DNA of 40,000 nucleotides from Planctomycetota bacterium (lineage in GTDB: Bacteria; Planctomycetota; Phycisphaerae; Phycisphaerales; Phycisphaeraceae): NCBI GenBank assembly GCA_039180415.1, contig JBCDDH010000009.1, positions 1 through 40,000 on the forward strand, given 5' to 3'. Below the pieces are notes generated by a model. The model was not told where the DNA came from, ran no database searches, and was given only the letters and a program-made list of their open reading frames with translations. Within the stretch, counting starts at the first letter, position 1. Each line of letters starts with the position of its first letter. Shown here piece after piece: positions 20,875 to 31,120 of this stretch. Made by a program: the position numbers and the translations under genes.

Positions 20875-22425
20875 TCAGCCCACGGAGCCTTCGAGGCTCA
20901 CGGCCAGCAGCTTGTTCGCCTCGACCGCGAACTCCATGGGTAGTTCGCTGAAGACTTCCTTGCAGAAGCCGTTGACCAGCAGACTCATCGCGTCTTCTTC
21001 GCTGATGCCGCGGGCGGTGCAGTAGAACAGCTGGTCCTCGGCGATCTTGGTGGTCGAGGCTTCGTGCTCGGCCGTGGCGGTGGTGTTGCGGACGTCGACG
21101 TAGGGGAACGTGTGGGCGCCGCACTGGTCGCCGATCAGGATCGAGTCGCATTGCGTGAAGTTGTGGGCCTTTTTGGCGGACTTCCGCATCTCGACCAGGC
21201 CGCGGTAGGTGTTGTGGCCCCGACCGGCGGAGATGCCCTTGGACACGATCGTGGAGGTCGTGTTCTTGCCGATGTGGATCATTTTGGTGCCGGTGTCGGC
21301 TTGTTGCTTGAGCGTGGTTAGGGCGACCGAATAAAACTCGCCTTTGGAGTGGTCGCCTTTCATGATCACGGACGGGTACTTCCACGTGATCGCGCTGCCG
21401 GTCTCGACCTGGGTCCACGAGATGTGGGCGTGATCCCCATTGCAAACCCCGCGTTTGGTGACGAAGTTGAAGATGCCACCCTTGCCGTCTTCGTCGCCGG
21501 GATACCAGTTTTGGATCGTCGAGTACTTGATCTTCGCGTCCTTCTCGGCGATCAGCTCGACCACCGCGGCGTGCAGCTGGTTTTCGTCGCGCTGCGGGGC
21601 GGTGCAGCCTTCGAGGTACGACACCTCCGCGCCTTCGTCGGCGATGATAAGGGTGCGCTCGAACTGCCCGGTGTTCCGCGCATTGATGCGGAAATAGGTG
21701 GACAGTTCCATCGGGCACTTGGTGTTTTTCGGGACGTACACGAACGAACCGTCGGAGAACACCGCGCTGTTGAGGCAGGCGTAGTAGTTGTCGGCATAGG
21801 GGACGACCGAGCCGAGGTACTTCTTGACCAGCTCGGGGTGATCGCGGACGGCCTCGCTGATCGAGCAGAAGATCACGCCCGCCTCGGCGAGCTGTTTCTG
21901 GAAGGTCGTCGCGACGGAGACGGAGTCGAATACCGCGTCGACCGCCACGGGCTTGCCGCCGACGGTCGCGGGGATTTCCGAGCCGTCGCCGCCTTCCTTC
22001 ACGCCGCGGGCGTCGAGCTCGGCGGCTTCCGCGGGGGACGCGTCGGTGATGCCGAGCAGCGCCTTGGTTTCGTTGAGCGAGATGCCGAGCTTCTCGTACG
22101 TCTCCAGCAACGCGGGGTCGACCTCGTCGAGCGACTTGGGGGCCTGCTTGGGCGCGGCGTAATAAGAGATCGACTGGAGGTCGGGCTGCTCGTAGCCGTA
22201 GGGCAGGAATTGCCAAGTCGGCGGGTTCATCTTCTGGTGGTGCCGCAGAGCCTTGAGCCGCCAGTCAAGCATCCAGTCGGGCTCGCCCTTCTTGGCCGAG
22301 ATGAAGCGGACGGTGTCGTCGTTCAGCCCGGGCGGGGCGAACTCCTGCTCGATGTCGGTGGTCCACCCGTACTTGTATTCGCGCCGCTCTTCGGTCATCG
22401 CGGCGACTTCGGCGGTGGTGGTCAT
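20875..22425 (-). CDS. sufB: Fe-S cluster assembly protein SufB
   Basis: [43 protein letters not shown]..., ...[16 protein letters not shown]..., [27 protein letters not shown]. 516 aa. Confidence 0.95.
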
Positions 22426-22733
22426 GGGCTTGTCGGCCTTAGCTAGCTAGGGTTCAAGGAACAGGGATCGGCTCACGAAACCCGTCCAAGTTCGGGCGAT
22501 TCGTGTCGTTTTTTGGCGTCCGCACGACCGATTCGGGCATCAAAGCGTCCAAAACGTTCACGTGCGGTTCGCAGCGCAGTGTAGACCTATTCGGAAGCCT
22601 TGACTACTATTCTGCGAACGAATTTCATCGCGGGATTCGCCGATCCTTTGATCGTCGATCGCCGAAATGATCAAGGCTCCGCACGGGTTGTTTTATACAG
22701 TCCGATCCCCGTTCCCCGAACCCCAGACCGACC

Positions 22734-23066
22734 ATGCCCATCGCCCTCTCCGAAACCGCCGCCAAGGAAATCAAGAACATCATCGAGCAGCAGGAACTCG
22801 ATCGCGAGAACGTCCGCCTCCGTGTCGGCGTCAAGGGCGGCGGCTGCTCGGGTTTCTCCTACCTGCTGGACCTGACCGAGACGCACCGCGACAACGACGA
22901 AGAGTTTGAGATCCACGGCATCAAGGTCGTTTGCGACCCCAAGTCGTACCTGTATCTCAACGGCACGAACGTCGATTTCAAAGACGAGGTGATGGGCCGG
23001 GGCTTCGTGTTCAACAACCCCAATGCGACGAGCACGTGCGGGTGTGGTTCGTCTTTTAGCGCTTAA
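22734..23066 (+). CDS. erpA: A-type iron-sulfur carrier (ErpA/IscA/HesB family)
   Basis: LRVGVKGGGCSGFSY and the C-terminal NPNATSTCGCGSSFSA motif. 110 aa. Confidence 0.92.
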   Translation: MPIALSETAAKEIKNIIEQQELDRENVRLRVGVKGGGCSGFSYLLDLTETHRDNDEEFEIHGIKVVCDPKSYLYLNGTNVDFKDEVMGRGFVFNNPNATSTCGCGSSFSA

Positions 23067-23093
23067 GCAACGCGATCCAGGCATAACCATCGG

Positions 23094-23130
23094 AAGCCCG
23101 CGTTCGTTGACGCGGGCTTTTCCTGCTTTC
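23094..23130 (+). terminator. Rho-independent-type terminator after the erpA-like gene
   Basis: 9-bp stem AAGCCCGCG (23094-23102) / CGCGGGCTT (23111-23119) with an 8-nt loop, followed by TTCCTGCTTTC. Confidence 0.6.
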
Positions 23131-23162
23131 GCGGGGTCGCCCGCCTCGATACAAAAGCGGGC

Positions 23163-23975
23163 GTGAAACTCTGGCCCCATCACGAACGGGCGATCGCGTC
23201 GTTGATCGGTGAATTATCAGAGGGAACCGACGCGCTCGCGCTCATCCTCGGCGGATCGCTGGCCCGCGGTTGGGGTTCGCCGACCAGCGACCTCGACGGG
23301 CACCTGCTGATCGCCGAGTCGGCGATGGAGCGCCATGTCGCAAACGGGCAATACGTTTTTGTTCCCCAGCGCAACCACTGCGACTACGACGGCGGGTATG
23401 TCGATCTGAAATTGGTGTCGCATGCGCTGCTGGAAGACGCGGCGGCCCGGGCGAGCGAGCCGTTCCGAAACGCTTACGTCGGCGTCGAAGTCGTCTGGGC
23501 ACGCGACGGCGTGGACGCCGACGGCTTGCGTTCGCTGATGGCCCGGATCGCGACGTATCCGGAAGCCGACCACGCCGAGAAGGTGATGCTGTTGGCGAGC
23601 CACCTGCGGGGGATGCACTGGTACGTCGCTGAGGCCGACAAACGCGACGACCGGTACCTGATGCTGTGGTGCGCCCAGCGGACGGCGCTGCTGGCGGCGC
23701 GGCTGGTGCTGGCCGAGAATCGGATGCTGTATCCGTTTCACAAGTGGCTCATGCGGTCGGTGCGCGAGTTGCCTCAGAAGCCGGCGGGCTTGCTCGACGC
23801 CATCGACGCCGCGCTGGCGACGCCGAGCGCCGCGACCGTGCGGGCGTTGGCGGAGTTGGTGGACGGTTGGCGCGACTGGGGCGCCCCGGACGCGTGGTGG
23901 AACCCGTGGCTTTCGCGGACCGAGTGGGCCTGGCGGATCCGCGGGGAAGGGGCGATGGGGATCGACGAGGTGTGA
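23163..23975 (+). CDS. Nucleotidyltransferase-fold protein with C-terminal helical domain
   Basis: GTG start. LILGGSLARGWGSPTSDLDGHLL is a minimal-NTase G-S...D-x-D motif. The helical C-terminal half contains RMLYPFH (R-x5-H). Confidence 0.75.
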   Translation: MKLWPHHERAIASLIGELSEGTDALALILGGSLARGWGSPTSDLDGHLLIAESAMERHVANGQYVFVPQRNHCDYDGGYVDLKLVSHALLEDAAARASEPFRNAYVGVEVVWARDGVDADGLRSLMARIATYPEADHAEKVMLLASHLRGMHWYVAEADKRDDRYLMLWCAQRTALLAARLVLAENRMLYPFHKWLMRSVRELPQKPAGLLDAIDAALATPSAATVRALAELVDGWRDWGAPDAWWNPWLSRTEWAWRIRGEGAMGIDEV

Positions 23976-24013
23976 GCGGACGAGAGGATCAGGCGGCTGG
24001 GCCGTAGGTGCGT

Positions 24014-25159
24014 TCATCCTTCCGTCTTGTGATTCAGCAGCCAGGCCGTGATCGCCTCGAAGTCGAAGTCGTTCTCGGGAAAGTCGCGGATCGTGGTCCG
24101 AGCTCCGCTGCCCAACGCCAGTAAGACCACACGGCCTTGCCCGATCTGGCCGACGACCATCACGGGCATCTGACCGGTCGGCGGGTCGGCGGTCCGCGGT
24201 TGGCCGTTATGGTCGGTGACGGGCACGGTCTGGGGTCGGTGGATTAGCAGCACCGCGGAGGCGACGGGCTCGAAAATCCAGGCGCAGGTGAAGGCATACA
24301 CGGTTTGGCCGGGCGAAAACCCCGGGATGGTCGGATGCGTCGCCAGCACGTCCGCTTCGACTAGTCTCCGCTCGTCCAGCCAGCCTCCTCCTTCGTGGTT
24401 GTGGTGGGAGCCGAGGGGTGTCGGCCGGGCGAGGTTGATTCGCATGACCAGCGGGTGATCGACCCCCGGCCGGTTGCCGCCGGTGAAGTCGTTGGTGTAC
24501 ATCGGCACGCCGGACTCGATCGCGGCGACGAGCGGCGCGAGCACGTCTTCGCGGATGTTGGTGTGGTGGCCCAGGTAGATCAGGTCTAGGCCGGCCCACG
24601 CCTCGGGGTCGGTCGCCGAGACCATCGGCCGATCGGCCAGCCCGCGGTTGACCAATGCCGCGGGGTCGTTTTCGGTGCCCGGCTCGACCAGCAGCACCAC
24701 CTCGTACCGAGGCCCAGCAAGGTGCACCTCGGCCATCCCCAATTGGCGGAAGTAGCCCGGGATCACCGTCTGGTCGGGGTCGATCGACGTCGTCGCCGCC
24801 GTCTGGCTGACCAGCACCCCGACCCGGATCGTCTCCCCGAGCGGGGCGGCAGCGGCGTTGGGGTTGGTCCCGGCGAACCGCGACGGGGACAAGACGGCTA
24901 CCCCTTGCCACACCGCGAAGGTGATGCCGCCGGTAAACACGCCGATCGCGAGCAACAGTTTGAGACCCGAGCCGGTCGCGAGCGCCGCGAGCCCGCCGCC
25001 GGTCGACAACGGCACCCCGCTGACGCCGATGGTCTTCAGCGTGCCGGTCAGCACGACCGGCACCGTCGCCGCCGACGCCGCCTGCTCCAGGCCCACCGTC
25101 AACGCCGCCGCGGTCACCTCTACGCTCCGCCGCCGCAGCACGGTCCGCAACGCGTCCAC
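24014..25159 (-). CDS. Membrane-anchored sensor/anti-sigma-like protein, in frame with the upstream ECF sigma
   Basis: GTG at complement of 25157-25159. One TM (LKLLLAIGVFTGGITFAVWQGVAV), then an extracytoplasmic alpha/beta-looking domain (IRVGVLV..., YEVVLLVEPG, LDLIYLGHHTNIREDVLAPLVAAIESGVPMY). Same reading frame as the sigma gene, separated from it by TAG plus one codon. Confidence 0.7.
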   Translation of the reverse strand: MDALRTVLRRRSVEVTAAALTVGLEQAASAATVPVVLTGTLKTIGVSGVPLSTGGGLAALATGSGLKLLLAIGVFTGGITFAVWQGVAVLSPSRFAGTNPNAAAAPLGETIRVGVLVSQTAATTSIDPDQTVIPGYFRQLGMAEVHLAGPRYEVVLLVEPGTENDPAALVNRGLADRPMVSATDPEAWAGLDLIYLGHHTNIREDVLAPLVAAIESGVPMYTNDFTGGNRPGVDHPLVMRINLARPTPLGSHHNHEGGGWLDERRLVEADVLATHPTIPGFSPGQTVYAFTCAWIFEPVASAVLLIHRPQTVPVTDHNGQPRTADPPTGQMPVMVVGQIGQGRVVLLALGSGARTTIRDFPENDFDFEAITAWLLNHKTEG

Positions 25160-25162
25160 CGC

Positions 25163-25639
25163 CTAGGCCGAACGCCGGCTCATGGTCGGGACGCTGGTGC
25201 CGTGCCGACTCGCCAACTGCTGAAGCGTTTGGCTCCGCAGATAGCGGTCGACGATCAATGCGCGGTGGGCCTCGTCCAGCTCCAGCATCGCCTCGTCGAC
25301 CAGGGGTTGCAGTTCTGCCCAACGGGTCGCCTCGGTGCCCCGTTGAAGCCGGGCCCACTCCCGGGCGCGCCGGTCCTGGGAGTCGCGCCGCCGGATCCGG
25401 TCGAGGCAAGTGGTCGTCGCGGTCCGCTGAAGCCATCCCCCCAGGCTGGACTGGATCGCCTCGGCGTGCCGGGCCAGCTTGAGGAACGTGTCCTGTGCCG
25501 CGTCCTCGGCGTCCGTCGCGTTACGCAGCGTCCGCAGGCAGACGCCGTAAACCATCTCTTGGTAGCGGTCCACCAGCAACGCAAACGCGTCGGGGTCTCG
25601 GTGTTTCTGGTATCGCCGCAGCGCCGTGTTGTCCGTCAT
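25163..25639 (-). CDS. ECF-type RNA polymerase sigma-70 factor (region 4.2 cut short by TAG)
   Basis: Region 2: DAFALLVDRYQEMVYGVCLRTLRNATDAEDAAQDTFLKL. Region 4: ALIVDRYLRSQTLQQLASRHGTSVPTMSRRSA-stop. GGGAGAG lies 5 nt upstream of the ATG at complement of 25637-25639; alternative starts at 25660 and 25663. Confidence 0.85.
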   Translation of the reverse strand: MTDNTALRRYQKHRDPDAFALLVDRYQEMVYGVCLRTLRNATDAEDAAQDTFLKLARHAEAIQSSLGGWLQRTATTTCLDRIRRRDSQDRRAREWARLQRGTEATRWAELQPLVDEAMLELDEAHRALIVDRYLRSQTLQQLASRHGTSVPTMSRRSA

Positions 25640-25678
25640 CGAAGCTCTCCCGGTGTGCATCACCCCCTCGCAGGACGC

Positions 25679-25703
25679 ACGCCCGGGGCAGATTTTTCAT
25701 TCC
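25679..25703 (-). promoter_or_regulatory. Candidate ECF-type promoter (GGAAT-N17-CGT) upstream of the sigma gene
   Basis: The minus strand reads GGAATgaaaaatctgccccgggCGTGCG about 40 nt upstream of the ATG. This resembles the GGAAC-N16/17-CGT pattern of autoregulated ECF promoters. Motif match only. Confidence 0.3.
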
Positions 25704-25787
25704 GACATAATCCTGGGCAAACGCGGCTTCGACCGGGCCCGCGCCGCTCTTCGCGGAGCGATCACACCGTCACCGAAAGCCCTGCGC

Positions 25788-25932
25788 GCCGAGCGCCGCG
25801 ACGGTGCACGCATTGACGGAGGGTTGGCGTGATTGGGGTACCCGGGACGCGTGGGGGAACCCGTGGCTGTCGGGTACTCAGTGAGCGTGGCGGACCCGCG
25901 GGTCAGGGGCAATGGGGATTGGCGAGGTGTGA
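25788..25932 (+). pseudogene. Decayed duplicate of the 3' end of the nucleotidyltransferase gene
   Basis: 25818-25932 aligns without gaps to 23861-23975 (the last 115 nt of the NTase gene including GAGGTGTGA), with about 95 of 115 positions identical by hand count. Weaker similarity with a 9-nt deletion extends upstream to 25788 (vs 23822), possibly to about 25745. The copy has an in-frame TGA (...WLSGTQ*) and no 5' part. Confidence 0.75.
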
Positions 25933-25991
25933 GTCGATTGCGTTTTCATTCGGCCGCGGTCTTCAGTGAAGATCGAGCGTAAGCCATTGCA

Positions 25992-26717
25992 TCAATTTCG
26001 CAGCCCCCTGGCCGGGTAGCACCGCCATGCGATAAGCGCGAGAATGCTCGGCACGAACAATGCGGATAAAGACTGTGAGACCGCCTGCCAACGGACAACG
26101 GTTTCTAATTCTTTGACGCTCCCGAAGCTGAGGAGCAACGCGTTCACAAAGGGGGCGAACAAGGTCAGTAAGACCGTAGCGCCGATGAGGCCGCTGAATA
26201 AAACCAGAGGGCGGGCGATGATCCATCGGTTGATGGCGGATAAACCCGAGAACGTTCGGCCCCGACTCAACCGCCAAACGCCGGCGACCAAGGTGATCCA
26301 CACCACGCCGTATGCGGCGACCAGGCCGAACGAGACGAGCGACGGAGCGAGGGCTTTTTCTGCCATCAACCAGAACGACAAGGGCCCGAGCACCGAAAGC
26401 ATTGCCTTCGGGAGAATCCAGAGGGCGAACATACCCAGCACCATCCAGACGATCCGGCGTTGCCATGCTCGGCCAGGTTCCGCTTCGAGGTAGGCGCGCT
26501 GCAAGTCTGATGGAGCGCCAACACGGCGTGCCGCGATCAGCACGCGTTCCCAAGGATCGAGGCCGTGTTCGGGGATCTTCTCCAATTCGGTTTCCAGGTG
26601 ATCCTGCAATTCGTCGAGTTGATCGGGCGCGATCGCGTCTTCCTGAGCGAGGCGGTCTCGCCATCGGCGGACGAGGGTGTCGAGGTGGGACGTGGGTGGG
26701 TTGGTTGATTCAAGCAT
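25992..26717 (-). CDS. PadR-associated membrane protein, paralog 1 (N-terminal helical prefix domain plus about 4-5 TM)
   Basis: ATG at complement of 26715-26717 gives MLESTNPPTSHLDTLVRRWRDRLAQEDAIAPDQLDELQDHLETELEKIPEHGLDPWERVLIAARRVGAPSDLQRAYLE, followed by hydrophobic helices. The N-terminal domain is shared with the four ORFs upstream. Confidence 0.75.
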   Translation of the reverse strand: MLESTNPPTSHLDTLVRRWRDRLAQEDAIAPDQLDELQDHLETELEKIPEHGLDPWERVLIAARRVGAPSDLQRAYLEAEPGRAWQRRIVWMVLGMFALWILPKAMLSVLGPLSFWLMAEKALAPSLVSFGLVAAYGVVWITLVAGVWRLSRGRTFSGLSAINRWIIARPLVLFSGLIGATVLLTLFAPFVNALLLSFGSVKELETVVRWQAVSQSLSALFVPSILALIAWRCYPARGLRN

Positions 26718-26736
26718 GATTGGTTTCTCTGTTTCT

Positions 26737-27216
26737 TCAGGCGAGCCGTCGTTGGCGTTGGACGAGTTTCCAGGCGGCGAAGGTGCCCGCGGACAAGACG
26801 GCGAGCATGGCCAACGCCTGCGGGAAACCGCGGATGGCGTCCTGGATGGCGTCGCCGGTCGGCCCGAACCAATCGTCGAGTTCTCGTTCAAATTCCCACG
26901 CGCCGTGGCCGGCGAACAAGGCCAAGACCGGGGTGCCCAACAGGATCGCGGCGAACATGAGCTTGGCCGGAACGGAGACTTGCAGGCTTGTGGCGTGCGA
27001 CGCGGGCAGCAGCGGTTGGCCGAGCCGATCGGCGGCGACGACGACACGCTCCCGCGGGCTGAGCGACGTGTCGTTGAGGTTCTGGAGTTCGCTGCGCAGG
27101 TGGTCTTCCAGTTCGTCCCGGCGGTCTTGGGGCAGCCGGCGGAGTTGTTCGGACCATTGCCGGATCAGCGCTTCGGCGGGGTCGGTGGCGGGCGTGGAGG
27201 AAGTTTCGTGCGGCAT
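26737..27216 (-). CDS. PadR-associated membrane protein, paralog 2 (prefix domain plus 2 TM)
   Basis: ATG at complement of 27214-27216 gives MPHETSSTPATDPAEALIRQWSEQLRRLPQDRRDELEDHLRSELQNLNDTSLSPRERVVVAADRLGQP, then LMFAAILLGTPVLALFAG and ALAMLAVLSAGTFAAW. Confidence 0.7.
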   Translation of the reverse strand: MPHETSSTPATDPAEALIRQWSEQLRRLPQDRRDELEDHLRSELQNLNDTSLSPRERVVVAADRLGQPLLPASHATSLQVSVPAKLMFAAILLGTPVLALFAGHGAWEFERELDDWFGPTGDAIQDAIRGFPQALAMLAVLSAGTFAAWKLVQRQRRLA

Positions 27217-27332
27217 CGTGCGAGCTTTCTTTGGAGAAACAAGGGGCAAGAATCGTTGGGTCACTTATCGATCGGTGTTCGTTCGTTGGGTAGATGGCTT
27301 GATCTTTGGTTGCTTCGGTCGTCTTGAGGGCG

Positions 27333-28025
27333 TCACATACCGACCTGCCGGTGGTTGAGGCGATGGATCACGACGGCTTGTACGAACAGGCCGGTTCCGG
27401 CGAGCGCCGCCAAGCCAATAGCCGCGGCGGTGAACTTGAAAATGAATTTCGCGTTGCTTGGGCTAGCTGGCGAGTCGAACAGGTTGGCCCAGATCATCAA
27501 CCCTGCGAAAGCGTGGAGCAGGACGCCCAACAGCCCGGCGAGGTAGACCGACGCCCGGCCGTAGACCAGGAGGCTGAGCATTGTCATCGGGATGAGCAAC
27601 ATCAGGGCGACTTCGATCACGTCGATCGGCCATGAGCCCTGAGCCGACATCACGCTGCGGGTGCCGCCCCAAACGAAGCCGGGGGCCACGACGGCCACCG
27701 CTGTGAACGGAATCACCAACAGGGCGCCGATCAACGTGACGTTTCCCATCGCGATCGTGAGGTGCAATACGTTGAGCGGTGACCATGACCACCGCCGCTT
27801 TGAGGCGCGGGTCTTGCGGTATTCGGTCGCGAGACGCGTGGTTTCCCCAAGTTGCTCGGCCGCGATTTGGAACGCGGCAAGTTCGGTCTGACCTTGGCGC
27901 AGCTCTGCCGCGATGGCGTCACGGAGGTGGCTCTCCAACTCGTCGATCTCATGGCGGGTCAACACATTGTGTTGCTCCAGGTTGCGCCGCCACCGCCGGA
28001 TGTGACTGTTTATGTCGTCGGGCAT
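27333..28025 (-). CDS. PadR-associated membrane protein, paralog 3 (prefix domain plus about 4 TM)
   Basis: ATG at complement of 28023-28025 gives MPDDINSHIRRWRRNLEQHNVLTRHEIDELESHLRDAIAAELRQGQTELAAFQIAAEQLGETTRLATEY, then four hydrophobic helices. Confidence 0.75.
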   Translation of the reverse strand: MPDDINSHIRRWRRNLEQHNVLTRHEIDELESHLRDAIAAELRQGQTELAAFQIAAEQLGETTRLATEYRKTRASKRRWSWSPLNVLHLTIAMGNVTLIGALLVIPFTAVAVVAPGFVWGGTRSVMSAQGSWPIDVIEVALMLLIPMTMLSLLVYGRASVYLAGLLGVLLHAFAGLMIWANLFDSPASPSNAKFIFKFTAAAIGLAALAGTGLFVQAVVIHRLNHRQVGM

Positions 28026-28105
28026 GGCTTGAGTCCCAAGGGGTTGGCGAGGGTGTTGTCGACGGCGAGCCGGTCGCGGCGTTGCTTGGGCCGTGGCTGG
28101 ATTGA
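28026..28105 (-). pseudogene. Relic of a PadR gene 3' end (between paralogs 4 and 3)
   Basis: The minus strand translates KQRRDRLAVDNTLANPLGLKPCPTT*, compared with the intact PadR tail QEQRRDWLAVHNTLADLWGIKPCPTT*. As in the intact pair, the relic tail overlaps the MPDDIN start of the next gene. No PadR N-terminal part remains. Confidence 0.75.
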
Positions 28106-28603
28106 TCAGGCGGCGAGGGACCGCATCGCGTAGGCATCGCGCGTTTTGCGGGTGACCCAGGTCAGCTCGTAGGCCAGCGCGACGACCGCCAGCAGGGTGG
28201 CGGGCAAAAGAACGATCCAGAAACCACCGAACCACGGGTCGCCGTTCCAAGGATTCAACAGGTCGAGATCTTGGCGGCTCCAGCTTTCCGCGATCACCAC
28301 ATACAGCACGGGCATCGCGAACAGGCAACGCACCGCGGAGAGGCCATAGTCCCGTAGCCCGGGGCGGAAGCCGCGCTGAAATTCTCGAACCAGTCGGCCC
28401 GATCGACCCAGGCGCATCACCGCGACGATCGCTTTTTCTTGCGGGGATAACGGCAGCCCGTCGAAGGCCGAAAGGTTGGTGCGTAGGTGGTCTTCGAGTT
28501 CGTCACGCTGCGCCCGCGACAGCCCGGACAGCGACCGTCGCCACCGCGCGATCGATAGCTCGGTTTCGCTCGCGCCGTGTGGTGTGTTTATGTCGTCGGG
28601 CAT
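28106..28603 (-). CDS. PadR-associated membrane protein, paralog 4 (prefix domain plus 2 TM)
   Basis: ATG at complement of 28601-28603 gives MPDDINTPHGASETELSIARWRRSLSGLSRAQRDELEDHLRTNLSAFDGLPLSPQEKAIVAVMRLGRSGRLVREF, then two hydrophobic helices. Confidence 0.75.
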   Translation of the reverse strand: MPDDINTPHGASETELSIARWRRSLSGLSRAQRDELEDHLRTNLSAFDGLPLSPQEKAIVAVMRLGRSGRLVREFQRGFRPGLRDYGLSAVRCLFAMPVLYVVIAESWSRQDLDLLNPWNGDPWFGGFWIVLLPATLLAVVALAYELTWVTRKTRDAYAMRSLAA

Positions 28604-28690
28604 GGCTTGAGTCCCCAAAGGTCGGCGAGGGAGTTGTGGACGGCGAGCCAGCCACGGCGTTGATCGCGCGGGCGTTCGCCGGATGCACGT
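28604..28690 (-). pseudogene. Relic of a PadR gene 3' end (between paralogs 5 and 4)
   Basis: The minus strand contains ...WLAVHNSLADLWGLKPCPTT* (frameshifted further upstream), near-identical to the intact PadR tail, and again overlaps the MPDDIN start codon of the downstream paralog. Confidence 0.75.
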
Positions 28691-29416
28691 TTAGGCGGTG
28701 CGGAATCGACGCCACCCCACCCACAGTGCGATGCCGGGCAGGATCAACGGCAGGACGACTTGATGCATCCAGAACTGGATGTCGTGGTACGCCCGGAATT
28801 TCACCAAATCATTGAAGTTCGCCGCTTGCTGATCGATCCCCGGCAGCGCGACCCACCGGGCGAGTAACGGTGTGGCCGTCAACACCACAAGCGCAACCCA
28901 CAGCGAGAAACCCAGTGAAGTTGAGGCGTTTGGACGATACTTTCGTTCGCGTACGAGTCGGCCACGGCCCAGCAGAACGATCCCCACGCAAAGTCCGGCG
29001 ATCAAGAGCCCGTTGGTGGTTGCGATCAAGCCGAACCATCCCGCGTACGGCAGGACGACCTCTTCGGTCAGGACCAACGCCGAGATAAACAGCCAGCCGG
29101 TGAGGTGTTGGTACGCAAGAAACCCCAGCACGCCCGCGGCCATCCAGGTCAGGCGTCGGGACCACAGCCGACCGCCCGACGAGCGTGTGAATTCCCGCAC
29201 GAGCGCGTCGGGATGGCCGATGCGGCATGTGGCGATCGTGAATCGCTCCGTCGGGGACAGCGCTCTCAACGAGGGGTCCTGCATCGACCGCTGAAGATGG
29301 TCTTCGAGTTCGTCGATTGCCGGTGGATCGAGCATGCCGTCGGACGCGACGCGGTGACGCCAGCCGCGGACGAGCGTATCGAGTTCGGCCGGTTCGCGGT
29401 TCACGTCGTCGGGCAT
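28691..29416 (-). CDS. PadR-associated membrane protein, paralog 5 (prefix domain plus about 4 TM)
   Basis: ATG at complement of 29414-29416, 16 nt inside the PadR gene. Sequence: MPDDVNREPAELDTLVRGWRHRVASDGMLDPPAIDELEDHLQRSMQDPSLRALSPTERFTIATCRIGHPDALVREF, then four hydrophobic helices. Confidence 0.78.
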   Translation of the reverse strand: MPDDVNREPAELDTLVRGWRHRVASDGMLDPPAIDELEDHLQRSMQDPSLRALSPTERFTIATCRIGHPDALVREFTRSSGGRLWSRRLTWMAAGVLGFLAYQHLTGWLFISALVLTEEVVLPYAGWFGLIATTNGLLIAGLCVGIVLLGRGRLVRERKYRPNASTSLGFSLWVALVVLTATPLLARWVALPGIDQQAANFNDLVKFRAYHDIQFWMHQVVLPLILPGIALWVGWRRFRTA

Positions 29417-29745
29417 GGCTTGATTCCCCAAAGGTCGGCGAGGGTGTTGTGGACGGCGAGCCAGTCGCGGCGCTGTTCTTGCAGCGCGGTGTGGCCGGAT
29501 TGTTCGAGGCGGTAGTACTTGCGGCGTCGGCCGGTGTCGGGGGCGGTGTCCCAGCGGCTCTTGATGTGGCCCTGTTTTTCGAGCTTGTGGAGGACGGGGT
29601 AGAGCATGCCGTCGGTCCACTCGAGGTGGCCGCCGGAGCGTCGCTTGACTTCCTGGAGGATGGCGTAGCCGTAGGACTCGCCTTGCTCGAGGATGGAGAG
29701 CACGAGCGGTCGGGCGGAGGCGGCGACGAGGTCTTTGCCGGGCAT
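29401..29745 (-). CDS. PadR-family transcriptional regulator
   Basis: MPGKDLVAASARPLVLSILEQGESYGYAILQEVKRRSGGHLEWTDGMLYPVLHKLEKQGHIKSRWDTAPDTGRRRKYYRLEQSG is the classic PadR winged-helix pattern. An upstream ATG at 29760 lies inside the predicted promoter, so 29745 is preferred. Confidence 0.88.
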   Translation of the reverse strand: MPGKDLVAASARPLVLSILEQGESYGYAILQEVKRRSGGHLEWTDGMLYPVLHKLEKQGHIKSRWDTAPDTGRRRKYYRLEQSGHTALQEQRRDWLAVHNTLADLWGIKPCPTT

Positions 29746-29751
29746 GGCAGT

Positions 29752-29794
29752 ATGATGCATTGAAGATCAATGTATGTCAAGCGCGGCGACATAC
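29752..29794 (-). promoter_or_regulatory. Candidate padR promoter with overlapping inverted-repeat operator
   Basis: The minus strand reads GTATGTCgccgcgcTTGACATACattgatcttcaatgCATCATactgccATG. Perfect -35 TTGACA (29775-29780), 17-nt spacer, -10-like CATCAT (29752-29757), with the ATG 6 nt later (leaderless-like). Perfect inverted repeat GTATGTC-N9-GACATAC (29772-29794) contains ATGT/ACAT half-sites and overlaps the -35. Confidence 0.45.
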
Positions 29795-30027
29795 GATTTC
29801 GGGTTTCTCCGGCTTGAGGCGCAAGCGTGTCAACTTGGCGGGTCTGCTTGGGCGTGCCTTGTTATGCTCGTTTGAGCCGTTTTGGACGATTTGGGGTGGC
29901 CCAGACCAGGCGGCGAACACCGCGTGTCCTCGGCCCGGGCGCGTGGGCGGGTTGTTCGGCCGGCGGCGGACGTCGGCCGGCTCGCGCCGTGATCCCCGGG
30001 CCGTCCGTACGAAGGAAGGTAATTGCG

Positions 30028-30282
30028 ATGTTGAACAAGTTTCTGATGATGCTGGCGTTGGGTGTGTTCACCGTGTCGATCGTGGCGTGCGAGCAGGCCG
30101 AGACCGATCTGGAGTCGGCCGCGGGCGAGGTCGAAGCCGCCGCCGGTGACGCCGCCGAGGCCGCGGAAGGGACCGCGGGCGACATGATGGAAGCCGCCGA
30201 AGAAGCCGCGGGCGACGCGGCCGAGGCCGCGGAAGACGCGGCGGAAGAGGCCGGCGAAGCATTGAACAACGTGCTGAACTAA
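30028..30282 (+). CDS. Small acidic Ala/Glu-rich lipoprotein with internal repeat
   Basis: GAAGGAAGG upstream of ATG 30028. MLNKFLMMLALGVFTVSIVAC (lipobox-like IVAC), then AAGDAAEAAE-type repeats. A 25-nt near-identical direct repeat at 30145-30169 and 30211-30235 (2 mismatches, 66-nt period). Confidence 0.7.
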   Translation: MLNKFLMMLALGVFTVSIVACEQAETDLESAAGEVEAAAGDAAEAAEGTAGDMMEAAEEAAGDAAEAAEDAAEEAGEALNNVLN

Positions 30283-30306
30283 GCCGCGTTTTCAGAGAAG
30301 ATCACG

Positions 30307-30339
30307 CCGCCGACCCGTGAGCGCGGGTCGGCGGTTTTT
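30307..30339 (+). terminator. Rho-independent terminator
   Basis: Perfect 11-bp stem CCGCCGACCCG (30307-30317) / CGGGTCGGCGG (30324-30334), 6-nt loop, then TTTTT (30335-30339). Confidence 0.8.
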
Positions 30340-30418
30340 GTGCGCGACGCCGGGTGGCGTTGGGATAGACTCGGGCCGCCTGCGAGGTGTTTCGTTCAAA
30401 CCGCACGAGGAATCAGGG

Positions 30419-31120
30419 ATGGCCACGATCAAAGAGAAGATGGGTTCGCTGCTGGGCAAGATGCGCGGCAACGGCCCGGCCCGGAAGTACGACGTCGCCC
30501 GGATCGAAGGCATGCCCGACCCGGAGCAGAAAAAGCAGGTCACGCTCGCCGAGATCAAGCAGGGCTACGGCGAGATCGTCGACACGATGCAGGCCCTGCG
30601 GTCGCACCTGGAAGACACGCAACAGCGTCAGGCCCAGATGGCCCAGATGATGGAGGGGTTGCCCGCCGTCCTGAGCAGCCTCCCCGAGGCGACGCGCACG
30701 CAGACCCAGCTCATCCGCGCGATCGGCTCGCACCTCGAGAGCCAGAACACGACCAACGGCCACCTGACCGAGGCGATCCAAGGCCTGAGCAAGTCGGCCG
30801 ATCGGCAAGACGACACGCTCGGCCAGATCCGCGAACACCTGGTCGGCGAAAGCGACACGCGGCGCGAGCTGCACACCGGGGTGCTGGCCTTGAACAGCAC
30901 GCTGGAGAGCGTCGAGGCGAGCAACCTCGCCGCCAAAGACGCGCTCACCTCGGCGCAAGACCAGGCGCGTCAGAGCGAAGAGCGCATGGCCGAGCTGTAC
31001 CGCAAGGGGCAGCGCACGAACATGGTGATGCTGCTGCTCAGCGCCGTCATGGTGGCGGCGGCGGTGGGGGTGGTGGCGTGGCTGGTGGTCAACGGCGGGG
31101 CGGGCACGTCGGCGGGTTGA
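30419..31120 (+). CDS. Tail-anchored coiled-coil protein, unknown function
   Basis: GAGGAA upstream of ATG 30419. Gln/Leu/Glu-rich heptad-like sequence (LRSHLEDTQQRQAQMAQMMEGL..., LNSTLESVEASNLAAKDALTSAQDQARQSEERMAELY) and a single C-terminal TM (MVMLLLSAVMVAAAVGVVAWLVV). Confidence 0.7.
   Translation: MATIKEKMGSLLGKMRGNGPARKYDVARIEGMPDPEQKKQVTLAEIKQGYGEIVDTMQALRSHLEDTQQRQAQMAQMMEGLPAVLSSLPEATRTQTQLIRAIGSHLESQNTTNGHLTEAIQGLSKSADRQDDTLGQIREHLVGESDTRRELHTGVLALNSTLESVEASNLAAKDALTSAQDQARQSEERMAELYRKGQRTNMVMLLLSAVMVAAAVGVVAWLVVNGGAGTSAG

What the first reader, a model, noticed from the sequence alone, without database searches (positions are those of the whole stretch)
24014..25663. ECF sigma factor and downstream membrane sensor share one reading frame split by a single TAG inside region 4.2
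The sigma ORF ends ...QQLASRHGTSVPTMSRRSA-TAG (stop at 25163-25165). One codon later, in the same frame (the two listed ORF starts are 504 nt apart, which is divisible by 3), the next ORF reads AVDALRTVLRRRSVEV..., followed by a TM helix and a roughly 290-aa extracytoplasmic domain.

ECF region 4.2 normally runs ...G.S.GTVKSRL.RA...LR..L. Here that final helix is cut in the middle, and its second half (DALRTVLRRR) forms the N-terminus of the 'anti-sigma-like' protein.

Possible explanations:
- a recent nonsense mutation in a fused sigma-TM-sensor protein (ECF sigmas with regulatory C-terminal extensions are known, notably in Planctomycetes);
- a sequencing or assembly error;
- regulated TAG readthrough giving two products.

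As annotated, the sigma lacks part of its -35 recognition helix. A GGAAT-N17-CGT ECF-like promoter sits upstream (25679-25703).
Basis: partly seen in the sequence, partly recalled or inferred. Interest (0 to 1): 0.62.

Follow-up and report, generated by a model that had tools for sequence, protein, structure and literature searches.

The report
Fused sigma-sensor gene broken by one stop
A gene that normally makes one protein, a stress-type sigma factor joined through a membrane anchor to a sensor-like domain, is cut in two here by a single stop codon; it is most likely a recently broken copy, not a new mechanism.

Summary
On the minus strand an ECF sigma ORF (25639/25663 to 25166) ends at TAG 25165-25163. 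The same frame continues for 381 codons to 24014.

Profile models and solved ECF structures align straight across the TAG. It cuts the last sigma-4 helix about 11 residues early.

Every relative examined is one uninterrupted protein with a sense codon there. This holds for 12 from related genomes, 9 with the same sigma, membrane helix and C-domain layout, and a 548-aa paralog in the same genome. 50 of 52 proteins carrying the C-domain have an N-terminal sigma domain.

The C-domain has a ThuA/GATase1-like fold.

No tRNA reads TAG, TAG is not over-represented at in-frame junctions, and no significant RNA structure follows the stop. A second, independent assembly (Logan contig of SRR22824324) carries the same TAG.

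The gene lies in a roughly 6.3-kb stretch that two same-genus genomes lack. A decayed 155-nt duplication brackets it.

Best reading (about 0.7): a real, recent nonsense allele in a membrane-tethered ECF sigma factor with a C-terminal extension, a known kind of protein. The proposed upstream promoter motif is present but not above chance and not conserved.

The parts
25166..25639 (-). ECF sigma factor ORF as it stands: 158 aa from ATG 25639, or 166 aa from the alternative GTG 25663. Sigma-2 is at about 25382-25576. Sigma-4 begins at about 25291 and is truncated.
   Evidence: Pfam Sigma70_r2 scores 56.7 bits and Sigma70_r4 covers only 1-39 of 50. TIGR02937 scores 67 bits against a cut-off of 42.9. 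The 158-aa product is on record from two gene callers.
25163..25165 (-). In-frame TAG inside the last (recognition) helix of sigma-4.
   Evidence: Sequence read directly. The aligned column holds K/R/Q/E/T/S/D/A in 12 relatives and E or R in 9 homologs with the same architecture. It aligns to Arg of ...SRIHRGR... in SigW and M. tuberculosis SigE. The TAG is identical in Logan contig SRR22824324_658911.
25133..25162 (-). Remainder of the sigma-4 helix (AVDALRTVLR), now on the far side of the stop. It contains GTG 25159, which the NCBI record uses as the start of the 381-aa downstream protein. This GTG is the ancestral Val codon of the helix.
   Evidence: Sigma70_r4 reaches 49 of 50 and TIGR02937 reaches 163 of 165 only when this stretch is included. 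See also the alignments. Candidate restart codons and their upstream sequence are listed; by eye, no Shine-Dalgarno-like motif precedes GTG 25159.
24965..25132 (-). Linker between sigma-4 and the membrane segment (RRSVEVTAAALTVGLEQAASAATVP...), conserved in pattern among relatives.
   Evidence: Alignments. No Pfam anti-sigma domain was detected.
24890..24964 (-). Predicted single transmembrane helix (LKLLLAIGVFTGGITFAVWQGVAVL).
   Evidence: The Kyte-Doolittle 19-residue maximum is 1.84 for the window protein. Nine homologs have a stronger hydrophobic peak (2.1-2.9) in the corresponding part of the protein (residues about 223-270).
24017..24862 (-). 282-aa C-terminal domain with a ThuA / class-I glutamine-amidotransferase-like fold. 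It is predicted to be extracytoplasmic. The stop codon TGA is at 24014-24016.
   Evidence: AlphaFold2 with a 9-sequence alignment gave pLDDT 74 and pTM 0.81. The top Foldseek PDB hits are 4jqs, 1t0b, 2gk3 and 3rht (E 4e-7 to 2e-6, TM 0.40-0.55). A family profile against PDB hits 3rht at E 0.005. PF06283 ThuA is hit by 4 of 52 homologs. The window copy keeps all invariant columns of the family.
25679..25703 (-). GGAAT-N17-CGT motif upstream of the sigma gene. It is a possible ECF-type promoter but is uncorroborated.
   Evidence: Present. The window holds 2 matches against 1.34 expected. It is absent upstream of 13 homologous genes.
23822..23976 (+). Copy A of a 155-nt direct repeat: the functional 3' end of the neighbouring 270-aa gene (23163-23975). 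That gene is called a nucleotidyltransferase in an earlier scan note; this was not tested here.
   Evidence: the repeat finder family D1 and the alignment.
25779..25933 (+). Copy B of the repeat: a decayed relic (75-84% identical, with a 9-nt deletion and an in-frame TGA) on the other side of the sigma gene.
   Evidence: Together the two copies bracket the sigma-fusion gene.
23976..30277 (.). Stretch of about 6.3 kb that two same-genus genomes lack. It contains the sigma-fusion gene, the relic, and an array of paralogous membrane-protein genes.
   Evidence: In G003 and G002 the order is sufS, sufD, sufC, sufB, the ortholog of the small ORF at 22671-23066, the ortholog of the 270-aa gene, and then directly the ortholog of window 30278-31120.

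Best explanation
The locus is one ancestral gene for a membrane-tethered ECF sigma factor of about 540 aa. Its parts, in order, are sigma-2, sigma-4, a linker of about 55 aa, one transmembrane helix, and a periplasmic ThuA/GATase1-like domain of about 280 aa. This is the type called an ECF sigma with a regulatory C-terminal extension, which is abundant in Planctomycetota.

In this genome the gene carries a genuine single nonsense codon (TAG 25165-25163) in the middle of the sigma-4 recognition helix.

Shown here:
- The frame, the cut helix and the domain content.
- The same architecture occurs uninterrupted in every relative examined.
- There is no TAG-decoding machinery.
- An independent assembly carries the same TAG.

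Inferred:
- The mutation is recent. Every family-invariant residue and the codon bias are intact on both sides of the stop.
- The gene as it stands is crippled. The free 158-aa sigma lacks about 11 residues of its -35-binding helix and has lost its tether. The downstream membrane protein would be made only if ribosomes restart at GTG 25159 or GTG 25117.
- The intact protein would work like other tethered ECFs: held at the membrane, then released or activated when the outer domain senses a signal, probably by proteolysis as in IutY.
For: 1. The frame and stop were read directly.
2. Region 4 is complete only across the TAG. Sigma70_r4 covers 1-39 of 50 (23.2 bits, below cut-off) without it and 1-49 of 50 (27.2 bits) with it. 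TIGR02937 covers 153 versus 163 of 165. Solved ECF sigmas align through the stop to the end of their last helix.
3. Twelve relatives from related genomes and the same genome read straight through this column.
4. Nine homologs with the same sigma, TM and C-domain architecture (540-600 aa) are uninterrupted, with E or R at the column.
5. 50 of 52 proteins sharing the C-domain have Sigma70_r2 at the N-terminus.
6. In a phylum sample, the other three hits to the C-domain lie in open frames of 538-548 aa. Only the window copy is 382.
7. The same genome keeps an intact 548-aa fused paralog.
8. The window copy retains all invariant family residues, and GC3 is 0.85 before the stop and 0.885 after it.
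9. A Logan contig of SRR22824324 is 100% identical over 4083 bp, TAG included.
10. ARAGORN finds no tRNA-CUA or tRNA-Pyl. TAG accounts for 15% of ordinary stops and is not enriched at in-frame coding junctions.
11. Literature: C-terminal extensions are the second most common mode of ECF regulation (PMC7826278). Planctomycete ECFs gain varied extensions when duplicated sigma-coding sequence inserts into other genes (PMC7671368). Tethered ECFs such as IutY and ECF52 are activated by proteolysis (PMC8999054).
12. The gene sits in a 6.3-kb stretch that two same-genus genomes lack and is bracketed by a decayed 155-nt duplication. That is a setting where gain and loss of genes is plausible.
Against: - No close ortholog (over 50% identity) exists in any collection searched. 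The pre-mutation state is therefore inferred from 23-46% identical relatives, not observed.
The Logan contig may come from the same reads as the deposited assembly. It excludes an assembler artefact but not a systematic base-call error or a mixed population.
- No further decay is visible. That fits 'very recent' but fits 'still functional as two genes' equally well.
- Standalone TM plus ThuA-like proteins without a sigma domain exist in metagenomes, so the downstream product could be viable on its own.
Confidence: 0.7

Rival explanations
1. Base-call or consensus error, or a minor population allele. Under this reading the organism's gene is intact and the TAG is an artefact of sequencing or binning of a metagenome-assembled genome.
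For: - The genome is a draft of 129 contigs and 93% completeness.
- The lesion is a single base-triplet in an otherwise perfect gene.
- Raw reads could not be checked.
Against: - Two assemblies made with different software, the deposited 65.5-kb contig and a Logan contig, agree base for base over 4083 bp.
- Substitution errors in a consensus are rare compared with indels (general knowledge).
Confidence: 0.12
2. Functional gene fission. The stop is fixed and the locus now works as two genes: a free, shortened sigma factor, and a separate membrane protein made by restart at GTG 25159 or GTG 25117. The membrane protein might act on the sigma in trans like an anti-sigma factor.
For: - A start codon lies two codons after the stop, and the NCBI and Logan gene callers each call a downstream gene (381 and 367 aa).
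- Both halves keep native codon bias and every conserved residue.
- Standalone TM plus ThuA-like proteins exist elsewhere (P0044, P0060, P0073, P0076, P0077).
- Deleting most of the extension makes IutY constitutively active (PMC8999054).
Against: - The cut is not at a domain boundary. It falls inside the sigma-4 recognition helix and removes about 11 helix residues that all solved ECF sigmas possess.
- GTG 25159 is simply the conserved Val codon of that helix, and by eye no Shine-Dalgarno-like motif precedes it (sequence).
- No relative among more than 70 examined is split at or near this point.
- No anti-sigma domain is detectable in the linker.
Confidence: 0.1
3. Programmed or leaky TAG read-through that yields both a short free sigma and a full-length tethered sigma from one mRNA.
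For: The frame is perfectly preserved across the stop, and the missing helix residues follow immediately. Two products from one message would be a neat regulatory design.
Against: - No tRNA with anticodon CUA and no pyrrolysine or selenocysteine tRNA was found among the 46 tRNAs detected.
- TAG terminates 334 of 2257 long ORFs (15%). It is not over-represented among same-frame coding junctions: 25 of 190 and 8 of 74.
- The RNA after the stop folds no better than shuffles (z = -1.5).
- No relative uses a stop here.
Confidence: 0.03

Closest known systems
ECF sigma factors with regulatory C-terminal extensions (19 groups in ECF classification 2.0, PMC7826278), especially the planctomycetal clade with long, variable extensions (PMC7671368; ECF57-type with WD40 repeats, PMC8999054)
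   Same: The sigma-2/sigma-4 core is followed in the same reading frame by a long extension. The best sigma-domain relatives are Planctomycetota proteins of 440-1020 aa carrying WD40, CarboxypepD_reg and other extensions. The insertion-like genomic setting matches the model in which a duplicated sigma-coding sequence inserts into another gene.
   Different: The extension here is a ThuA/GATase1-like domain. I found no description of this as an ECF extension in the searchable literature. This copy is interrupted by a stop codon. ECF group membership could not be assigned because the ECF Hub models are not available.
IutY of Pseudomonas putida (ECF243) and the ECF48/52/53 group (e.g. SCO4117): sigma/anti-sigma hybrid proteins with a transmembrane segment
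   Same: The layout is a cytoplasmic ECF sigma, a single TM helix and an extracytoplasmic domain in one polypeptide. By analogy, the expected mechanism is release by regulated proteolysis (PMC8999054).
   Different: No FecR-like or zinc-finger anti-sigma domain is detectable in the linker. The outer domain is ThuA-like, not FecR-type or carbohydrate-binding. There is no sequence relationship beyond the sigma core. Proteolytic activation has not been tested.
ThuA-like / class-I glutamine-amidotransferase-like proteins (PF06283; PDB 4jqs, 1t0b, 2gk3, 3rht)
   Same: The fold of the 282-aa C-terminal domain matches (Foldseek probability 1.0, TM 0.40-0.55). A family profile weakly matches the sequence of 3rht, which is from a planctomycete.
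   Different: The window domain itself gets no Pfam hit, and identity to the structures is 10-15%. The domain is attached to a sigma factor, and its function as enzyme or ligand sensor is unknown.
Ordinary nonsense pseudogenes and split genes in bacterial draft genomes
   Same: A single premature stop in an otherwise intact frame, with both halves called as separate genes by annotation pipelines.
   Different: Nothing of substance. The only unusual point is that the cut falls inside a DNA-binding helix, so it separates a regulator from its own sensor.

Membership tests
ECF (group 4) sigma-70 family | Sigma-2 domain present | tested here: met
   PF04542 scores 55-57 bits against a cut-off of 24. 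TIGR02937 scores 67 bits against 42.9.
ECF (group 4) sigma-70 family | Complete sigma-4 domain (helix-turn-helix with full recognition helix) in the same polypeptide | tested here: not met
   As encoded, Sigma70_r4 stops at profile position 39 of 50 and scores 23.2 bits, below the 24.1 cut-off. It is complete (49 of 50, 27.2 bits) only if the TAG is read through. Solved ECF sigmas extend 10-11 residues past the aligned position.
ECF (group 4) sigma-70 family | No sigma-1 or sigma-3 domains | tested here: met
   The Pfam scan of the read-through protein finds only Sigma70_r2 and Sigma70_r4.
ECF sigma with fused C-terminal regulatory extension | Extension of more than 50 aa translated as one polypeptide with the sigma core | tested here: not met
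   A TAG separates the two parts in this genome. The feature is met in all relatives: 12 of 12, 9 of 9, and open frames of 538-548 aa. The window copy is therefore a disrupted member by descent.
ECF sigma with fused C-terminal regulatory extension | No separate anti-sigma factor gene next to the sigma gene | not tested
   Neighbouring genes were seen only as ORFs and in synteny. They were not scanned for anti-sigma domains.
Membrane-tethered sigma/anti-sigma hybrids (IutY, ECF52 type) | Single transmembrane helix between the sigma core and an extracytoplasmic domain | tested here: met
   Hydropathy maximum of 1.84 at residues 225-243, with the helix assigned to about 234-258. Nine homologs show stronger peaks in the corresponding part of the protein. 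Hydropathy only; no dedicated TM predictor was available.
Membrane-tethered sigma/anti-sigma hybrids (IutY, ECF52 type) | Recognisable anti-sigma domain (FecR-like or zinc-binding) between sigma-4 and the TM helix | tested here: not met
   No Pfam or NCBIfam hit in the linker or the downstream ORF.
Membrane-tethered sigma/anti-sigma hybrids (IutY, ECF52 type) | Activation by regulated intramembrane proteolysis | not testable with these tools
   Needs experiments. Inferred only by analogy from PMC8999054.
ThuA-like / GATase1-like domain (PF06283) | Sequence match to the Pfam model above threshold | tested here: not met
   The window domain has no Pfam hit. Only 3 of 18 and 4 of 52 homologs match ThuA (best E 2.7e-6).
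ThuA-like / GATase1-like domain (PF06283) | Class-I glutamine-amidotransferase-like fold | tested here: met
   Model pLDDT 74, pTM 0.81. Foldseek top hits are ThuA-like 4jqs and 1t0b, STM3548 2gk3, and GATase1-like 3rht.
ECF57 or another named ECF Hub group | Score above the group-specific HMM threshold of ECF classification 2.0 | not testable with these tools
   The group HMMs are not in any available library. TIGR02989 (Rhodopirellula/Verrucomicrobium family) scores 43-48 bits against a cut-off of 124.55, so the protein is not a member of that NCBIfam subfamily.
Programmed stop-codon recoding or read-through | A decoding agent for TAG (suppressor or Pyl tRNA), or genome-wide in-frame TAG use | tested here: not met
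   No tRNA-CUA among the 46 tRNAs found. TAG is 15% of ordinary stops, and 13% and 11% of same-frame coding junctions.
Programmed stop-codon recoding or read-through | Stimulatory RNA structure just after the stop | tested here: inconclusive
   The MFE is -55.8 kcal/mol against a shuffle mean of -51.4 (z = -1.5); 12 of 200 shuffles fold as well.

The most novel reading that the evidence does not exclude
The TAG is fixed and the locus is a snapshot of a one-component, membrane-tethered ECF sigma factor splitting into a two-gene pair. One product is a free, shortened sigma. The other is a separately translated membrane sensor that still carries the end of the sigma-4 helix at its N-terminus. Alternatively, low-level TAG read-through sets a ratio of free to tethered sigma. 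Either case would be a natural example of how sigma/anti-sigma-like pairs and fused ECFs interconvert.
Probability: 0.1. Interest if true: 0.6.

Novelty: new member of a known kind. Interest (0 to 1): 0.27.

Why it matters
Mostly for annotation. The two genes called here (a 158-aa sigma factor and a 367/381-aa hypothetical protein) are halves of one disrupted gene and should be flagged as such. The sigma as encoded lacks part of its -35 recognition helix.

A secondary result is a sparsely distributed family of ECF sigma factors with a ThuA/GATase1-like C-terminal extension. About 90 representative clusters match the C-domain, mostly from metagenomes. Among the reference genomes sampled, the family was found only in the window's own order.

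The family comes in a soluble form and a membrane-tethered form. I could not find it described in the searchable literature, and it adds one more extension type to the catalogue of 'one-component' ECF sigmas.

If the stop proved to be fixed and both halves expressed, the locus would illustrate gene fission of a fused regulator. The present evidence makes that unlikely.

Tried and rejected
2. Close orthologs. The word-indexed search with the 381-aa ORF found only itself. The exhaustive representative search found nothing above 38% identity. Exact-flank DNA patterns with NNN at the stop found nothing in metagenome contigs or genome contigs. Fused versus split could therefore only be judged on distant relatives.
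3. Single-sequence AlphaFold2 of the 381-aa ORF was useless (pLDDT 33). A 9-sequence alignment was needed.
5. The profile search with the full-length alignment A1 returned mainly sigma-domain relatives with other extensions. That was useful for context but not for the C-domain.
6. A SufB scan of genome contigs to name the organism gave only 65-71% identical hits from many phyla, so no taxon name was obtained. Planctomycetota is inferred from source names of sigma relatives.
7. TAG recoding was rejected.
8. A stimulatory RNA structure after the stop was not significant.
9. The ECF-type promoter was not above chance and is not conserved. The sigma-70 promoter scan found none in 23800-26100, and the one terminator-like site is within chance.
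10. One search used a wrong Pfam accession (RtcB instead of a pyrrolysine gene). It is irrelevant to the finding.
11. Supplementary tables of the ECF classification paper are not held, so I could not check whether a ThuA-type extension group is already listed there.
Full report
**Observation**

On the minus strand, an ORF starts at GTG 25663. Gene callers prefer ATG 25639, giving 158 aa. It encodes an ECF-type sigma factor ending ...TSVPTMSRRSA, followed by TAG at 25165-25163. The next codons in the same frame are GCG and GTG (25159). The frame then stays open for 381 codons to the TGA at 24016-24014. The two ORF starts are 504 nt apart, which is 3 x 168.

**Is region 4 cut?**

Yes.
- Pfam Sigma70_r4 aligns to profile positions 1-39 of 50 in the sigma ORF alone (23.2 bits, just under the 24.1 gathering score). 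It aligns to 1-49 of 50 (27.2 bits) when the stop is replaced by X.
- TIGR02937 goes from 1-153 to 1-163 of 165.
- Against solved structures, the stretch SVPTMSRRSA-x-AVDALRTVLR aligns without gaps to PVGTVKTRIHRGREALRKQLR of B. subtilis SigW (5wuq), to PLGTIKSRIRLALDRLRQ of R. sphaeroides SigE (2q1z) and to [20 protein letters not shown] of M. tuberculosis SigE.
- The TAG therefore occupies a position inside the last helix of sigma-4, and about 11 helix residues lie beyond it.
- From general knowledge of ECF sigma-4/-35 complexes, which I did not test here, this helix is the one that reads the -35 element.

**What the whole frame encodes**

After the helix comes a linker of about 55 residues. 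Then comes a hydrophobic segment, LKLLLAIGVFTGGITFAVWQGVAVL (Kyte-Doolittle 19-residue maximum 1.84), and then a 282-aa domain.

The domain alone has no Pfam or NCBIfam hit. An AlphaFold2 model built on nine family members (pLDDT 74, pTM 0.81) matches ThuA-like proteins (4jqs, 1t0b), STM3548 (2gk3), the GATase1-like protein 3rht of Planctomyces limnophilus, and the equivalent middle domain of GH42 enzymes. A family profile finds 3rht by sequence at E 0.005. A few family members hit PF06283 ThuA.

The positive charges (RRRS) lie on the sigma side of the helix. I infer that the domain faces the periplasm.

**Relatives**

A six-frame search of 31 related genomes found many sigma relatives whose match runs from the sigma core through the linker with no stop.

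In an alignment of 12 such relatives plus one shorter ECF-only sequence, the column of the TAG holds T, K, K, R, D, S, E, K, A, Q, K, K in the 12. The helix motif SRR..KA.D.LR..L..RG is continuous.

The exhaustive search of 1.84 billion representatives with the downstream ORF gave 90 hits. Most are 470-600 aa with the C-domain at about 200-480. Of 52 aligned, 50 carry Sigma70_r2 at the N-terminus.

The family has two forms: one without a hydrophobic linker (about 480-530 aa) and one with a strong TM helix (540-600 aa). The nine TM-type proteins have exactly the architecture of the window frame. They are uninterrupted and have E or R at the TAG column.

The same genome holds an intact 548-aa paralog of the soluble type on contig C58.

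In a sample of 301 genomes of the phylum, the C-domain was found at E <= 1e-10 in only three genomes, all in the window's order. The other three hits lie in open frames of 538-548 aa, and only the window copy is 382. That search scored only 8 candidates per genome, so this is not proof of absence.

Several shorter database entries begin inside sigma-4 and run on into the C-domain (P0010, P0048, P0052, P0057, P0068). These look like 5'-truncated records and again show continuity. Five others (P0044, P0060, P0073, P0076, P0077) are standalone TM plus ThuA-like proteins without a sigma domain.

**Is the stop real?**

A Logan contig assembled independently from run SRR22824324 is identical to window 22281-26363, TAG included. 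This argues against an assembler artefact. It does not exclude a shared base-call error or a mixed population. No other public record contains the flanks of the stop with any codon in between.

**Recoding**

- ARAGORN finds 46 tRNAs and one tmRNA, none with anticodon CUA.
- TAG ends 334 of 2257 long high-GC3 ORFs.
- TAG is not enriched among same-frame coding junctions: 25 of 190 and 8 of 74 under a stricter test.
- The 105 nt around and after the stop fold no better than shuffles (z = -1.5).

Programmed read-through has no support.

**State of decay**

The window copy keeps every invariant column of the C-domain family and of the sigma core. GC3 is 0.854 before the stop and 0.885 after it, like the neighbouring genes. 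The lesion is therefore either very recent or tolerated.

GTG 25159 is the conserved Val codon of the helix (A-V/L-D in relatives), not an evolved start, and by eye no Shine-Dalgarno-like motif precedes it (sequence). GTG 25117, the start used by the Logan gene call, has GGAG nine bases upstream.

**Genomic setting**

A 155-nt direct repeat (23822-23976 and 25779-25933; 75% identical ungapped, 84% in a gapped alignment) brackets the gene. Copy A is the live 3' end of the neighbouring 270-aa gene. Copy B is a relic with a 9-nt deletion and an in-frame TGA. An earlier scan note (e1-2647033) pointed to this repeat, and I confirmed it.

In two same-genus genomes the order is the suf genes, the ortholog of the small ORF at 22671-23066, the ortholog of the 270-aa gene, and then directly the ortholog of window 30278-31120. 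About 6.3 kb (23976-30277) is therefore missing in those genomes. It contains the sigma-fusion gene, the relic and an array of paralogous membrane-protein genes.

This fits the published picture that planctomycete ECF genes spread by duplication and insertion and acquire varied C-terminal extensions (PMC7671368).

**Promoter**

GGAAT-N17-CGT is at 25703-25679 as reported. However, the window has 2 matches against 1.34 expected, and none of 13 homologous genes has the motif within 300 nt upstream. Its position is suggestive but the motif is uncorroborated.

**Comparison with what is known**

[quoted passage not shown] Membrane-spanning sigma/anti-sigma hybrids are known. IutY is released by Prc and RseP, and ECF48/52/53 are predicted to work the same way (PMC8999054).

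The window gene works like these in layout. It lacks a detectable anti-sigma domain, and its outer domain is of a different type.

I found no paper in the searchable library that links a ThuA-like domain to an ECF sigma. The supplementary tables of the classification paper are not held, so prior listing in the ECF Hub cannot be excluded.

**Verdict**

| Reading | Probability |
|---|---|
| Real, recent nonsense allele in a membrane-tethered ECF sigma factor with a ThuA-like C-terminal extension (a broken member of a known kind) | about 0.7 |
| Sequencing or consensus error, or a minor allele | about 0.12 |
| Functional fission into two genes | about 0.1 |
| Programmed read-through | about 0.03 |

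Interest is low to moderate. The finding is useful for annotation and for cataloguing a further ECF extension type, but it does not point to a new mechanism.

Noticed in passing
window 23822-23976 and 25779-25933: A 155-nt direct repeat brackets the sigma-fusion gene. Copy A is the live 3' end of the 270-aa gene at 23163-23975. Copy B is a decayed relic with a 9-nt deletion and an in-frame TGA where copy A has TGG. It looks like the scar of an insertion or duplication event.
   Followed up: yes
window 23976-30277: This stretch of about 6.3 kb is missing in two same-genus genomes (G003, G002). There the ortholog of the 270-aa gene is followed directly by the ortholog of window 30278-31120. The stretch holds the sigma-fusion gene and an array of paralogous membrane-protein genes.
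   Followed up: partly
window 25992-28328 (minus strand): Several paralogous ORFs share an N-terminal motif (...RRWR..L......L...E.DELE.HL...) followed by hydrophobic segments. Two of them (25992-27047 and 26737-27264) overlap in different frames on the same strand. An earlier scan note describes them as partners of a PadR gene. They were not scanned for anti-sigma domains.
   Followed up: no
G000:C58:7670-9202 (L014:496-2139, minus strand): The same genome has an intact 548-aa open frame (stop to stop) encoding a paralog: an ECF sigma fused directly, with no TM helix, to the same ThuA-like domain. It is 27% identical to the window read-through protein over its whole length.
   Followed up: partly
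proteins P0044, P0060, P0073, P0076, P0077 (metagenomic representatives): The ThuA-like domain also occurs as standalone proteins of about 320-350 aa, with a short N-terminus and one TM helix and no sigma domain. The domain therefore exists in three architectures: sigma-fused soluble, sigma-TM-fused, and TM-anchored alone. Their gene neighbourhoods could not be looked up.
   Followed up: no
family alignments A2 and A3 (window C-domain residues H176 and C193 of the 282-aa segment): The C-domain family has an invariant His (HP..PG motif) and an invariant Cys (G-C-G-P in most members, T-C-A in the window copy). They might form a catalytic or ligand-binding site. I did not check whether they are close together in the model.
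   Followed up: no
G000:C42:22068-22817 (minus strand): The nearest sigma-core paralog in the same genome (45% identity over residues 4-230, 316-aa open frame) has the same sigma, linker and TM layout but a short, different C-terminus. The genome therefore carries several tethered ECFs with different extensions.
   Followed up: no
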